Below are positions 38,233 through 41,600 of a DNA stretch of 64,000 nucleotides, one piece after another. This DNA comes from the human T2T-CHM13v2.0 reference genome, Homo sapiens, in the NCBI GenBank assembly GCA_009914755.4, contig CP068257.2, positions 6,176,001 through 6,240,000 on the forward strand. The letters are read 5' to 3'. Both the position numbers and the translations under genes were made by a program. The notes beneath the pieces were generated by a model. That model made no database searches and had not been told where the DNA came from. It worked only from the letters and a program-made list of their open reading frames with translations. Each line of letters starts with the position of its first letter. Within the stretch, counting starts at the first letter, position 1.

Positions 38233-38657
38233 ATGGCCCTCCCGACACCTTCGAATGGCACCCTCCACCCGGAATCCCAGGGACAGGGACATCGAAGGAG
38301 ACTCGTTTGGACCCCGAGGCAAAGCGAGGCTCTTTGAGCCTGCTTTGAGCGGAACCCTTACCGGGGCATCCCCACCAGAGAACGGCTGGCCCAGGCCATC
38401 GGCATTCCGGAGCCCAGGGTCCAGATTTGGTTTCAGAAAGAGAGGTCACGCCAGCTGAGGCAGCACCCGCGGGAATCTCGGCCCTGGCTAGGGAGACACC
38501 GCCGGCAAGAAGGCAGGCAAAAGCGGACCGCCGTCAGCGGAATCCAGACCGCCCTGCTCTTCCGAGCCTTTGAGAAGGATCGCTTTCCAGGCATCGCCAC
38601 CAGGGAAGAGCTGGCCAGAGAGATGGGCCTCCCAGAGTCCAGGATTCAGATCTGGCT
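38233..38657 (+). pseudogene. DUX4L: DUX4-like pseudogene fragment (N-terminal 141 codons; CGA->TGA nonsense at 38335-38337 inside homeodomain 1)
   Basis: It reads '[34 protein letters not shown]'. The homeodomain-1 motif [12 protein letters not shown] follows in a shifted frame. Confidence 0.8.
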
Positions 38658-41600
38658 ACAGGGGTCTTGTGACACCTCTCCGCACTGATCAGCCAGGTGA
38701 TGTAAACCTTGTCTAGGCTCTGCCAAAATGGGGCATTGTGACATAACTCTGCACTGATCACACAGGTGAAGGGACATTTCTCTAGGCTCTGCCTACAGGG
38801 GCATTGTGACATATCTCTGCAGTGATCACGCAGGTGATGTAACTCTTGTCTATATCTGACTACTGGCGGCATTGAGGCATATTTTTGCACTGATCACCCA
38901 GGTGATGGACTCTTGTCTTAGATCTGCCTAAGGGGGCATAGTGGCATATCTCTGCACTGATCACGCATGTGATGTAACGCTTGTCTAAGCTGCACTTAAA
39001 GGGGAATTGTGAAAGATATCTCCACGGATCACCCAGGTGATGTAACAATTTTCTGGGATTTGTCTACAGCGGGCTTTGTGACATATCTTTGCCCTGATCA
39101 CCCAGGAGATGTAAATCTTGGCTAGGCTCGGCCTACAGGGGCTTTGTGACATATTTCTCCACTGATCACCCTGGTGATGTAACTGTTATTTAGGTTCTGC
39201 CTACAGGGGCTTTGTGACATATCTCTGCAATGATCACCCAGGTGATGTAACTCTCGTCTAGGCTCCACCTACAGGGGGTATTGTGATGTATCTCTGCACT
39301 GATCACCCAGGTGAGGTAATTTTTGACTACGCTCTGCCTAAGGGGCACAGTGACATATCACTGCATTGATCACCAAGGTGATGTAACTCTTGTCCACGCT
39401 CTGCCTATAGGGGGCTTTGTGACATATCTCTGCACTGATCATCTAGCTGATGTAAGTATTACTTACGCTCTGCATGCAGGGGCATTGTGAAATATCTCTG
39501 CACTGATCACACAGGTGATGGGACTCTTCTCTAGGCTCTGCCTACTGTGGGCTTTGTCACATATTTCTGCACTGATCACCCAGGTGACGGACTCTAGTCT
39601 TGGATTTGCCTATGGGGGCATTGTGACATATCTCTGCACGGATGACCCAGGTGATATAACTCTTGTCTAGGCTCTCCCTACAGGGTTCTTGTGACATATC
39701 CCTGCACTGATCACCCAGGTGATATAACTCTTCTCTAGGATCTGCCTACAGGGTGCTTTGTGACATATCCCTGCAATGATCACACAGGTGATATACCACT
39801 TGTCAAGGCTCTGCCTACAGGGGCATTGCTATGTATGTCTGCACTGATCACGTAGGTCATGTAACTCTTGTCTAGGCTCTGCCTACAGTGGCATTGTGAC
39901 ATATCTCTGCACTGATCACCCAGGTGATGTAACTCTGTTCTAGTATCTGCCTGCAGGGTGCTTTGTGACATATCCCTGCAATGATCACCCAGGTGATGTA
40001 CCACTTGTCAAGGCTCTGCCTAGAGGGACATTGCGATGTATCTCTGCACTGATCACCTAGGTCATGTAACATTGTCTAGGCTCTGCCTACAGTGGCATTG
40101 TTGCATATCTATGCACTGATCATCCAAGTGATGTAACCCTTGTCTAGGATCTGCCTAAAGGGATTTTGTGACATAACCCTGCACTGATCATCCCTGTTGG
40201 GGCTTTTGTCTAGGCTTTGTCTAAGGGGGCATTGTGACATATTTCTGCACTGATCACCCAGGTGAGCAGATTCTTGTCTTGTATCTGCCTAAGGGGGAAT
40301 TGTGACATATCTCTGCACTGATCACCCAGGTGATGTAACTGTTGTATAAGCTCTGCCTACATGGGAATTGCGAGAGATCTTGACACTGATCACCCAAGTG
40401 ATGGAACTATTTTCTAGGCTTTGCCTACAGGGGGCTTTGTGGCATACCTTTGCACTGATCACCCAGGTGATGTAACTCATCTAAGTTCTGCCTACAGGAG
40501 CTTTGTGACATATCTCTGCACTGATCACTTAGGTGATGTAACACTTTTATAAGCACTGCCTACAGGGAATTTTGACAAATCTCTGCACTGATCACCTAGG
40601 TGATGTAACTCTTTTCTACCCTCTGCCTAAAGGGGACATTGTGAAATATCTCTGCACTGATCACCCAGGTGATTCAACTCTTGTATAGGATCTGCCTACT
40701 GCGATGTTTTCACATATCCCTGAACTGATGACAAAGGTTATGTAACTCTAGCCTAGGCTTTGCCTAAAGGGGACATTGTGGCATATCTCTGCACTGATCA
40801 CCCAGGTGATGCAACTCTTCTCTATGCTCTGCCTACAGGGGGCATTGTGACATATCTCGGCACTGATCACCCAGGTGATGTATCTGTTGTCTAGGCTCTG
40901 CTTACAGGGGGTATTGTGACATATCTCTGTACTAATCACCTAAGTGATCTAACAATTTTGTAGGCTCTGCCTACAGGGGCATTTTAACATATCTCTGAAC
41001 TATTAACTGAGATGAGGTAACTCTTGTCTAGGCTGTGCCCACAGGGGTATTGAGACATATCTCTGCAATGATCCCGAGGTTATCCAAATCTTGCCTGGTC
41101 TCTGCCTACCAGGGACATTGTAACATATCTCTGCACTGATTTCCCAGGTGCAGTAACTTTAGCCTAGGCTCAGGCTACACGGCATTGTGACATATCATAG
41201 CACTGATCACCCAGGTGATATAACTCTTGTCTAGGCTCTGCCTACAGGGTTCTTGTGACATATCTCTGCACTGATCACCCAGGTGATATAACTCTTCTCT
41301 AGGATCTGCCTAGAGGGTGCTTTGTGACATATCCCTGCAATGATCACCCAGGTGATGTACCCCTTGTCAAGGCTCTGCCTACAAGGGCATTGCGATGTAC
41401 CTCTGCACTGATCACCTAGGTCATGTAACTCTTGTCTAAGCTCTGCCTACAGTGGCATTGTGACATATCTCTGCACTGATCACCGAGGTGATGCAACTCT
41501 TCTCTATGCTCTGCCTACAGGGGACATTGTGACATATCTCTGCACTGATCGCGCAGGTGATGCAGCTCTTCTCTATGCTCTGCCTACAAGAGGCATTGTT

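What the first reader, a model, noticed from the sequence alone, without database searches (positions are those of the whole stretch)
38620..38700. Two independent-looking breakpoints fall within the same ~25 bp of homeodomain-2 helix 3 (IQIWFQNRR)
Half-unit E is cut after '…ccaggattcagatctggct' (38657) and joined to orientation-A beta satellite. Half-unit C begins at '…tggagaccaggagtgatatctggtttcag' (15866). One is a 5' half and the other a 3' half of a unit, overlapping by about 20 bp at the same motif, and both sit at satellite orientation switches. Either one rearrangement with staggered ends produced both, or this short sequence is a recurrent break or recombination site. The E junction uses 'ctggct/ctgcct acagggg' microhomology with beta satellite.
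Basis: partly seen in the sequence, partly recalled or inferred. Interest (0 to 1): 0.5.

Follow-up and report, generated by a model that had tools for sequence, protein, structure and literature searches.

The report
Coinciding breakpoints in D4Z4-like half-units
Two half-copies of a D4Z4-like (DUX4 pseudogene) repeat in a human beta-satellite array really are cut within about 20 bp of each other, but they are old, separately made, many-times-copied rearrangement scars rather than the two ends of one inversion, and the evidence that this spot breaks preferentially is only suggestive.

Summary
With intact unit H (56808-59541) as ruler, half-unit E keeps positions 1 to 1213-1218 and half-unit C keeps 1194-1197 to 2732. 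They overlap by 18-25 bp inside homeodomain-2 helix 3, and both lie at strand switches.

One detail is wrong. C is joined to a 310-bp inverted fragment of a unit's 3' end (15556-15865), not to beta satellite.

A single inversion or staggered cut does not fit:
- C and E have the same orientation inside one block.
- The flanks are not contiguous when the block is flipped back.
- The shared 25 bp differs at 6 positions, including a variant specific to the C family.

The window is human. Both junctions exist as several diverged paralogous copies in public human-derived contigs, so they are ancient and identical by descent. Other loci carry two further junction forms in the same 30 bp: inverted beta joined to unit position ~1190, and an inverted unit end joined to position 1213.

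All junctions show 1-5 bp microhomology, as expected for end-joining or template-switch strand switches in LSAU-beta-satellite arrays. Enrichment at this site is marginal (p about 0.03-0.25, depending on how the test is framed). A real break hotspot is therefore possible but not shown. No hairpin, inverted homology or PRDM9 motif explains it.

The parts
37434..38655 (+). Half-unit E: the 5' half of a D4Z4-like unit (unit positions 1 to 1213-1218). It contains a decayed homeodomain 1 and a homeodomain 2 cut in helix 3, after ...RIQIW.
38631..38655 (+). The 25-bp segment of E (CCCAGAGTCCAGGATTCAGATCTGG) that is also present at the start of C.
38651..38655 (.). TCTGG, an exact microhomology between the unit and the beta monomer. 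The E junction lies somewhere within it.
   Evidence: TRF starts the beta array at 38651
38656..44355 (-). It is a mosaic of spacer segments.
15556..15865 (-). f2: an inverted 3'-terminal fragment of a unit (unit 2730->2421). This is the true left partner of C.
15864..17429 (+). Half-unit C: the 3' half of a D4Z4-like unit (unit 1194-1197 to 2732). It belongs to the multi-copy 'J1' junction family.
15864..15888 (+). The 25-bp segment of C (CCTGGAGACCAGGAGTGATATCTGG) that is homologous to the end of E; 19/25 positions are identical.
22464..25220 (+). Intact unit D, lying between C and E in the same + block.
44356..46827 (+). Unit F, truncated at its 5' end at unit position ~285 and joined to inverted beta. 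This is the third strand switch of the window, with 2-3 bp microhomology.
12451..12990 (-). f1: a unit fragment (2731->2224) joined to same-orientation beta, i.e. a deletion-type junction.
43177..43200 (-). f3: a 22-24 bp remnant of a unit's 5' end (unit 22->1) inside the inverted beta block.
56808..59541 (+). Intact unit H, used as the coordinate ruler (unit positions 1-2732).

Best explanation
The window is a human LSAU (D4Z4-like) / beta-satellite composite array with a mosaic of strand orientations.

E and C are two separate, ancient strand-switch junctions. Each formed when a broken or stalled DNA end inside the homeodomain-2 helix-3 coding segment of a DUX4-like pseudogene unit was joined, through a few bases of microhomology, to sequence of the opposite orientation.
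- E was joined at TCTGG to a beta monomer.
- C was joined at CC(C) to the last ~310 bp of a unit in inverted orientation, giving an inverted-duplication-like arrangement: a(-) f2(-) | C(+) a(+).

The chemistry is that of end-joining or of a fold-back / template-switch (MMBIR-type) event. This step is inferred from junction anatomy and is not shown directly.

Both junctions were later copied many times by segmental duplication, so today's copies are identical by descent. C, D and E are most simply three consecutive units of a + array whose two outer units were cut by different events.

The two cuts fall 18-25 bp apart either by chance, among the many truncations in such arrays, or because this ~30-bp segment breaks somewhat preferentially. 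I rate these two readings as roughly equally likely.
For: - Array structure: 68-bp beta monomers and 2.73-kb units, with only three strand switches in the window. The units are 83-87% identical in a star-like pattern.
- Microhomology at every non-canonical junction: TCTGG at E, CC/CCC at C, 2-3 bp at F.
- Human origin, and the C junction is real: nine contigs from independent human-associated metagenomes match 15068-17589 at 99.4-99.8%.
- Age and copy number of the C-type junction: it occurs, at the same nucleotide, in paralogues that are 84-97% identical. The family is monophyletic, with 17 shared derived variants, the top of 276 lineage pairs.
- Age and copy number of the E-type junction: it occurs in at least four versions (window, P0001, P0009, and P0050/L012 at 92%) with the same junction nucleotide.
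- Different unit lineages: the 3' half of C is closest to intact unit B, sharing 5 of 17 family variants, the top of 99 sequences. E shows no B-like affinity.
- Strand switches and inverted unit-unit joins at many other unit positions occur in other loci, and such mosaics are described in the literature (PMC9186530, PMC10620044).
Against: - Three to four distinct junction forms fall in one 30-bp segment: C at 1194, L089-type at ~1190, L135-type at 1213, and E at 1213-1218. That is more than a naive expectation and hints at a common cause.
- The L135-type start at 1213 coincides almost exactly with the end of E.
- The unit phylogeny is nearly star-like. The lineage arguments therefore rest on few variants, and gene conversion could blur them. 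Discordant arm identities are seen.
- The joining mechanism is inferred from anatomy only.
Confidence: 0.6

Rival explanations
1. True recurrent break or fork-stalling hotspot. The ~30 bp encoding HD2 helix 3 (GCCTCCCGGAGTCCAGGATTCAGATCTGG) is intrinsically prone to breakage or replication-fork collapse in D4Z4-like units, and it has seeded at least two or three independent strand switches. (This overlaps the best explanation; it is the 'preferential' branch of it stated strongly.)
For: - Independent junction forms with different partners lie within 1189-1218:
  - C-type: an inverted unit end at 2421 joined to 1194.
  - L089/L070/L136/P0115 type: inverted beta joined to ~1190-1192, itself multi-copy at 91-98%.
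  - L135/P0101 type: an inverted unit end at ~2404 joined to 1213.
  - E: 1213-1218 joined to inverted beta.
- The right arms of the C-type and L089-type junctions share no excess of derived variants (2 and 7, against a mean of 5.6). They therefore arose in different unit lineages.
- Fisher-combined p for the in-window coincidence plus its replication in the 120-contig sample is 0.03-0.05.
Against: - No structural basis was found. DNA folding energy at 1150-1275 is average or weaker than average, at percentile 0.54-0.82.
- There is no homology between the 1194 and 2421 regions, 35/115 in register.
- The motif is not the best unit/beta microhomology.
- There is no PRDM9 13-mer at the site.
- Other truncations are scattered from position 22 to 2734.
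- With about 25 uniform breakpoints, a triple within 29 bp arises 46% of the time, and the replication p alone is 0.125-0.156.
- L135 belongs to the C family, so it is not an independent event. It was also found by a search biased to this region.
Confidence: 0.35
2. One ancestral staggered break. A single unit was broken once, with nicks ~25 bp apart. Its two ends each became joined to inverted sequence, giving 5' half | inverted block | 3' half with a ~25-bp duplicated target. Later duplications, deletions and re-breakage at the unstable inverted junction (~1190 -> 1194 -> 1213) produced today's forms and the present order C...E.
For: - E (unit up to 1213-1218 | inverted beta) and the L089 type (inverted beta | unit from ~1190) are exact complements with the same kind of partner. 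Their shared 25 bp is identical apart from one CpG change.
- All the junction families are ancient.
- The C-side forms retain progressively less of the unit, as expected from nibbling at a fragile junction.
Against: - In the window, C lies to the left of E in the same orientation, which needs extra tandem duplication. The inverted block after E is followed by F starting at position 285, not by a 3' half starting at ~1190.
- The beta-monomer phases at E (starts at phase 1-6) and at L089 (ends at phase 31-33) are not continuous, by my own reading of the sequences.
- C-type and L089-type right arms are not sister lineages, and the C family is B-like.
- The 25 bp shared by C and E differs at 6 positions, including a family-specific variant.
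Confidence: 0.2
3. Assembly or alignment artefact: the junctions are mis-joins in a hard-to-assemble satellite region.
For: The region is highly repetitive. One public contig (L052) does show an artefactual 'truncation' at this very spot, caused by an Illumina adapter.
Against: The C junction is reproduced at 99.4-99.8% identity in nine independent short-read assemblies. Both junctions recur, nucleotide for nucleotide, in diverged paralogues.
Confidence: 0.02

Closest known systems
LSAU-BSAT composite repeats: divergent D4Z4-like units interspersed with beta satellite on acrocentric short arms and the chr1 pericentromere (PMC10620044, which cites Hoyt et al. 2022)
   Same: The window has 68-bp beta monomers with units of about 2.7 kb carrying a decayed double-homeobox ORF. 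The units are truncated at the 5' end relative to canonical 3.3-kb D4Z4, occur in both orientations, and have many paralogues about 90% identical to a consensus.
   Different: Nothing in the papers I read describes where truncated units break, or junction families. The chromosomal location of this window could not be determined here.
'Mosaic inversion structure' of proximal beta-satellite arrays in T2T-CHM13 (PMC9186530)
   Same: There are repeated strand switches inside a beta-satellite array; the window has three in 64 kb.
   Different: Here the switches are mapped to the nucleotide. All three lie at or inside a D4Z4-like unit, not within pure beta satellite.
Fold-back inversions, inverted duplications with a spacer, and DUP-TRP/INV-DUP events made by template switching (MMBIR/FoSTeS). 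From my own knowledge, not from the papers read.
   Same: The junctions are inverted joins with 2-5 bp microhomology. The C junction has mirror-image arms, a(-) f2(-) | C ... a(+), around a 1.2-kb single-copy spacer.
   Different: The arm identity (82%) is no higher than between any two units, so a mirror origin can be neither shown nor excluded. The events are tens of millions of years old rather than de novo.
Staggered-break model of inversions or target-site duplication. From my own knowledge.
   Same: A short segment (18-25 bp) is present at both ends.
   Different: That model predicts inverted duplicates at the two inversion borders, or direct duplicates flanking an insert. Here the direct duplicates lie at the two inner ends of one block, and they differ at 6 of 25 positions.
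DUX4c, the truncated inverted D4Z4 unit proximal to the 4q35 array. From my own knowledge.
   Same: It is a partial D4Z4 unit in inverted orientation next to other D4Z4-family sequence.
   Different: As I recall it, the DUX4c truncation lies in the C-terminal coding part, not in homeodomain 2. This was not tested here.

Membership tests
LSAU-BSAT composite array | Tandem ~68-bp beta-satellite (Sau3A) monomers | tested here: met
   TRF finds period 68, 66 copies and 76% matches in 38651-43176. Beta satellite covers about 44 kb of the window.
LSAU-BSAT composite array | Interspersed D4Z4-like units carrying a DUX4-type double homeobox | tested here: met
   There are five full units and five partial units. 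Pfam Homeodomain hits are found in H, in E and in related ORFs (P0068 has two stretches). A DUX4-like C-terminus ...[11 protein letters not shown] is present in H.
LSAU-BSAT composite array | Human acrocentric short-arm or pericentromeric location | not testable with these tools
   Only human origin is shown. No human genome was searchable.
Simple two-break inversion producing both junctions | The two halves of the broken unit lie in opposite orientation, one inside the inverted segment and one outside | tested here: not met
   C and E are both + and both lie inside block 15864-38655.
Simple two-break inversion producing both junctions | Flipping the segment back restores contiguous sequence at both borders | tested here: not met
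   Flipping back would join unit 2421 to 1218, and unit 1194 to mid-spacer beta.
Single staggered cut with fill-in (target-site-duplication-like) | The duplicated segment derives from one molecule, so differences are only those expected from age | tested here: inconclusive
   Identity is 19/25. C has AGGAGTGA, which is shared with unit B and with all C-type paralogues, whereas E has the consensus. This argues against one molecule, but 25 bp is short and gene conversion is possible.
Microhomology-mediated junction (end joining or template switch) | A few bases shared by both partners at the join, with no long homology | tested here: met
   TCTGG at E, CC/CCC at C, 2-3 bp at F, GC at L089. There is no extended homology between the partner regions.
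Fold-back / inverted duplication with spacer | The arms on either side of the junction are mirror images of each other | tested here: inconclusive
   At C the order is mirrored: 3'-proximal beta and the unit end on both sides. However, f2 versus the 3' end of C is only 82% identical, no better than other pairs. At E no mirror of the upstream beta was found.
Recurrent breakpoint hotspot | Independent junctions with different partners at the same position | tested here: met
   L089-type (inverted beta | ~1190) and the C-type lie in different unit lineages. L135-type starts at 1213.
Recurrent breakpoint hotspot | Significant excess over a uniform distribution of breakpoints | tested here: inconclusive
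   The in-window p is 0.045-0.25 and the replication p is 0.125-0.156. A global triple within 29 bp among 25 uniform breakpoints has p = 0.46. Fisher-combined p is 0.03-0.05.
Recurrent breakpoint hotspot | A sequence or structural cause (hairpin, inverted homology, PRDM9 motif) | tested here: not met
   

The most novel reading that the evidence does not exclude
The 30 bp encoding DUX4 homeodomain-2 helix 3 is a genuine recurrent DNA-break or fork-collapse site in D4Z4-family repeats. It has repeatedly seeded the strand switches that give LSAU-beta-satellite arrays their mosaic orientation. If so, the same site might also be fragile in the disease-relevant 4q35/10q26 D4Z4 arrays.
Probability: 0.3. 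Interest if true: 0.6.

Novelty: new member of a known kind. Interest (0 to 1): 0.35.

Why it matters
Strand-switch mosaics in human satellite arrays were only seen once complete genomes existed, and how they arise is open. This work gives nucleotide-level anatomy for three switches. They sit at D4Z4-like units, use 2-5 bp microhomology, and are ancient junctions later amplified by duplication.

The practical lesson is that a search of complete genomes for 'copies truncated at this position' will mostly return copies identical by descent. Any hotspot test must therefore count junction families, not copies.

If the site does prove to be preferentially broken, it would be a concrete sequence to test for fragility in the FSHD-associated D4Z4 arrays. 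If not, this is an ordinary pair of old scars.

Tried and rejected
1. Simple inversion of 15864-38655, of 38656-44355, or of 15864-44355. None restores contiguous units.
2. A circle or linear fragment linearised by one staggered cut. It is disfavoured by the 19/25 identity and by the C-family variant.
3. The helix-3 motif as the best unit/beta microhomology. It is not; ACAGGGGGCTTT at ~1404 and other sites match beta far more often.
4. Hairpin or cruciform propensity. DNA-parameter MFE in 60-nt windows is unremarkable at 1150-1275.
5. Hidden inverted homology between the 1194 and 2421 regions, which might have explained why the C-type and L135-type junctions share one register. Only 35/115 matches were found. 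The equal 17-nt shift on both arms remains unexplained.
6. Mirror-image test of the beta flanks. The 3'-proximal beta segments are all 91-94% alike, so no specific mirror partner can be named.
7. PRDM9 13-mer. None is found at the site.
8. Deriving the C type from the L089 type. L089 keeps 3-5 more unit bases, so the reverse derivation is impossible. The right arms share no excess of variants.
9. E and C as halves of one B-like unit. E shows no B affinity.
10. A scan of bacterial/archaeal genome contigs for the motif found nothing.
11. L052 looked like a third copy cut at 1193, but it is an Illumina adapter join.
12. The first 105 nt of L070 (an apparent extra strand switch) are not reproduced in its 98% paralogue L136 and were ignored.
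Full report
**What the window is.** Composition and self-alignment show 2.73-kb GC-rich units embedded in 68-bp beta satellite. I used intact unit H (56808-59541, +) as a ruler for unit positions 1-2732. The map is as follows:

| Element | Window coordinates | Strand | Unit positions |
|---|---|---|---|
| A | 890-3651 | - | full |
| B | 4735-7476 | - | full |
| f1 | 12451-12990 | - | 2731->2224 |
| f2 | 15556-15865 | - | 2730->2421 |
| C | 15864-17429 | + | 1194->2732 |
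| D | 22464-25220 | + | full |
| E | 37434-38655 | + | 1->1218 |
| inverted beta block | 38656-44355 | - | (beta satellite) |
| F | 44356-46827 | + | 285->2732 |
| G | 50367-53128 | + | full |
| H | 56808-59541 | + | full |

- Beta satellite keeps a fixed orientation relative to its units.
- The window has only three strand switches: 15865/6, 38655/6 and 44355/6.
- Units carry decayed DUX4-like double-homeobox ORFs.
- Units are 83-87% identical to one another in a nearly star-like pattern.
- Beta segments next to unit ends are position-specific and 91-94% alike.
- This is the LSAU-BSAT composite described for acrocentric short arms and the chr1 pericentromere (PMC10620044). The strand mosaic is the 'mosaic inversion structure' noted for proximal beta-satellite arrays (PMC9186530).

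**The observation.** Local multiple alignment and comparison with the nearest paralogous beta monomer place the E junction inside TCTGG (38651-38655).
- The unit reads CAGATCTGGTTTCAG and the beta monomer at 42332 reads GGCTCTGGCTACAG.
- This is a 5-bp exact microhomology, or 9 of 11 positions over the longer stretch. E therefore ends at unit 1213-1218.
- C begins at CC(T/C)GGAG. Older paralogues still read CCCGGAG, and the f2 side would continue ...CCCAGCCC. The join is thus ambiguous over 2-3 bases, at unit 1194-1197.
- The overlap is 18-25 bp.
- Translation shows E ending ...PESRIQIW and C starting ...[13 protein letters not shown]. Pfam aligns the homeodomain of E only to profile position 49 of 57.

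**Chance.** The window holds six unit-internal breakpoints: 22 (a remnant at 43177-43200), 285, 1194, 1218, 2224 and 2421. Simulation gives:
- p = 0.045-0.087 for a complementary overlap of at most 30 bp;
- p = 0.25 for any pair within 25 bp.

**One event?** A two-break inversion puts the two halves of a broken unit in opposite orientation, one inside and one outside the inverted block. C and E are both + and both lie inside.
- Reverting any of the candidate segments does not restore contiguity.
- The shared 25 bp is only 19/25 identical. C carries AGGAGTGA, a variant present in every C-type paralogue and in intact unit B, whereas E has the consensus AGGATTCA.
- I therefore reject a single inversion or a single staggered cut as the origin of this locus's arrangement.
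- The simplest reading is that C, D and E are three consecutive units of a + array, with the outer two cut by different joins.

**Evidence from elsewhere.** ORFs that span the junctions allowed look-ups in public assemblies.
- The exact C-junction ORF is on 22 contigs from human-associated metagenomes. Nine retrieved contigs match 15068-17589 at 99.4-99.8%. The window is therefore human and the C junction is real.
- The same join, at the same nucleotide, occurs in paralogues with 84-97% identity (L009, L014 and L137, plus P0099, P0103, P0104, P0107-P0109 and P0120).
- Their right arms share 17 derived variants. This is the highest of 276 lineage pairs (mean 5.6, sd 2.5), so the family is monophyletic and old.
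- Intact unit B is the closest intact relative of this family, sharing 5 of the 17 variants, the top of 99 sequences.
- The E junction also occurs in at least four versions: the window, P0001, P0009, and P0050/L012 at 92%. The join is identical in all.
- The unit parts of E and L012 share only 2 of about 20 derived variants. That family therefore split soon after the junction formed, and it shows no affinity to B.

**Other junctions at the same spot.** I scanned metagenome contigs for the 21-mer of the overlap. This returned 120 human-derived contigs, most of them intact units.
- Truncations in these contigs are scattered. Left ends lie at about 590-958; right ends lie at about 1326-2734. They include inverted unit-unit joins such as 1864|2274.
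- One further type falls at the site: L089 and L070 carry inverted beta | unit from ~1190-1192 (...ATATTACTGCCT|CCCGGAGTCC...). This type is confirmed by L136, P0067 and P0115, and is itself multi-copy at 91-98%.
- The right arm of that type shares no excess of variants with the C family (2 and 7 shared). It is therefore a separate event in another unit lineage, 2-7 bp from the C breakpoint.
- A fourth form, L135/P0101, belongs to the C family (right arm 97.6% identical to L137). Its inverted arm runs 17 nt further, to ~2404, and its + arm starts 17 nt later, at ATCTGG (unit 1213). That is practically the point where E ends.
- I found no homology that would explain this equal shift on both arms.
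- A complementary survey for right-hand truncations found only the E family at 1213-1218.

**Is it a hotspot?** Replication in the 120-contig sample has p = 0.125-0.156. Fisher combination with the in-window value gives 0.03-0.05. However, 25 uniform breakpoints produce some 29-bp triple 46% of the time.
- I found no cause. Folding energy is unremarkable.
- The motif is not the best unit/beta microhomology.
- There is no inverted homology between the partner regions.
- There is no PRDM9 13-mer at the site.
- The hotspot reading is therefore suggestive but unproven.
- A single ancestral staggered break, giving an E-type and an L089-type end and later remodelled, remains possible but has several points against it: the window topology, the beta phase, and the lineages.

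**Mechanism.** All non-canonical joins show 1-5 bp microhomology. All three switches join + to - sequence.
- The C junction has mirror-ordered arms around a 1.2-kb spacer, like a fold-back or inverted duplication. Arm identity (82%) is uninformative at this age.
- I infer end joining or template switching (MMBIR-like) of a broken or stalled end. This step is inferred from anatomy, not shown.

**Verdict.** The single-rearrangement reading is not supported, and the recurrent-site reading is only weakly supported.
- These are new members of a known kind: old microhomology strand-switch junctions in an LSAU-beta-satellite array.
- A census of complete genomes must count junction families rather than copies, because both junctions are amplified by descent.

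Noticed in passing
L135 (whole contig; junction at about 383/384) compared with window 15850-15890 and with L137: A variant of the C-type junction. The inverted arm extends 17 nt further (...GGAGGATGCATTT) and the + arm starts 17 nt later (ATCTGG), so total length and register are unchanged. The right arm is 97.6% identical to L137, but the left arm is only 84%. No homology explains the equal shift.
   Followed up: partly
L089 1-1790; L070; L136: A multi-copy junction: inverted beta satellite | unit from position ~1190-1192. It is the mirror complement of the E junction. Its paralogues are 91-98% identical.
   Followed up: partly
window 43177-43200: A 22-24 bp remnant of a unit's 5' end (GCTCCGGGAGCAAACAGTTAGCC, minus orientation) sits inside the inverted beta block. 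It marks a deleted unit, and TRF splits the array there.
   Followed up: partly
window 15850-15874: A 9-bp inverted repeat, TGGTCTCCA ... TGGAGACCA, brackets the C junction with a 7-nt loop. It arises because GGAG(A/T)CC occurs in direct orientation at unit ~1197 and ~2429. Older paralogues have an 8-bp version. Its relevance is unknown.
   Followed up: partly
window-wide, e.g. 46828-48280, 17430-18700, 25221-26500, 53129-54400, 59542-60860 and (reverse) 11221-12450, 14281-15555, 3741-4734: Beta satellite next to unit ends is position-specific. 3'-proximal segments are 91-94% identical to each other, and 5'-proximal segments about 88-90%. The adjacent CpG-rich units are only 83-87% identical. 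The unit plus its spacer is therefore a higher-order composite, and the units seem to decay faster than the spacers.
   Followed up: partly
window 62200-62300: 3'-proximal-type beta restarts (62221 matches 47079) without a unit in front of it, and alignments nearby show length changes. This is probably another unit deletion or an internal spacer duplication.
   Followed up: no
window 38651-39452 vs 42332-43134, and 41702-43176 vs 60823-62303 (reverse): These are the highest-identity long matches in the window (88.4% direct, 90.6% inverted). They tie the inverted beta block to the spacer that follows unit H and reveal an internal 3.7-kb direct repeat in that block.
   Followed up: partly
L052 1-50: This public metagenome contig begins with an Illumina TruSeq adapter fused directly to CCCGGAGTCC..., mimicking a unit truncated at the same position as C. 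It is an artefact in the deposited assembly.
   Followed up: yes
L024 (1497-5624); L051; L069: Other loci carry head-to-head inverted unit-unit joins at quite different positions (1864|2274, 2147|354, 1906|361). The partner ends of the last two are 7 bp apart. L051 may be an assembler fold-back.
   Followed up: no
units, e.g. window 57741-57810 vs 57965-58034: The homeodomain-1 and homeodomain-2 coding segments are 76% identical at the DNA level, 224 bp apart. Some public ORFs (e.g. P0072) look like deletions between them.
   Followed up: no
L014 vs window; L135 vs L137: The arms of C-type junction paralogues have discordant identities (right 96.8-97.6%, left 83-84%). The cause is either gene conversion bounded by the junction or chimeric short-read assembly across paralogues.
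   Followed up: partly
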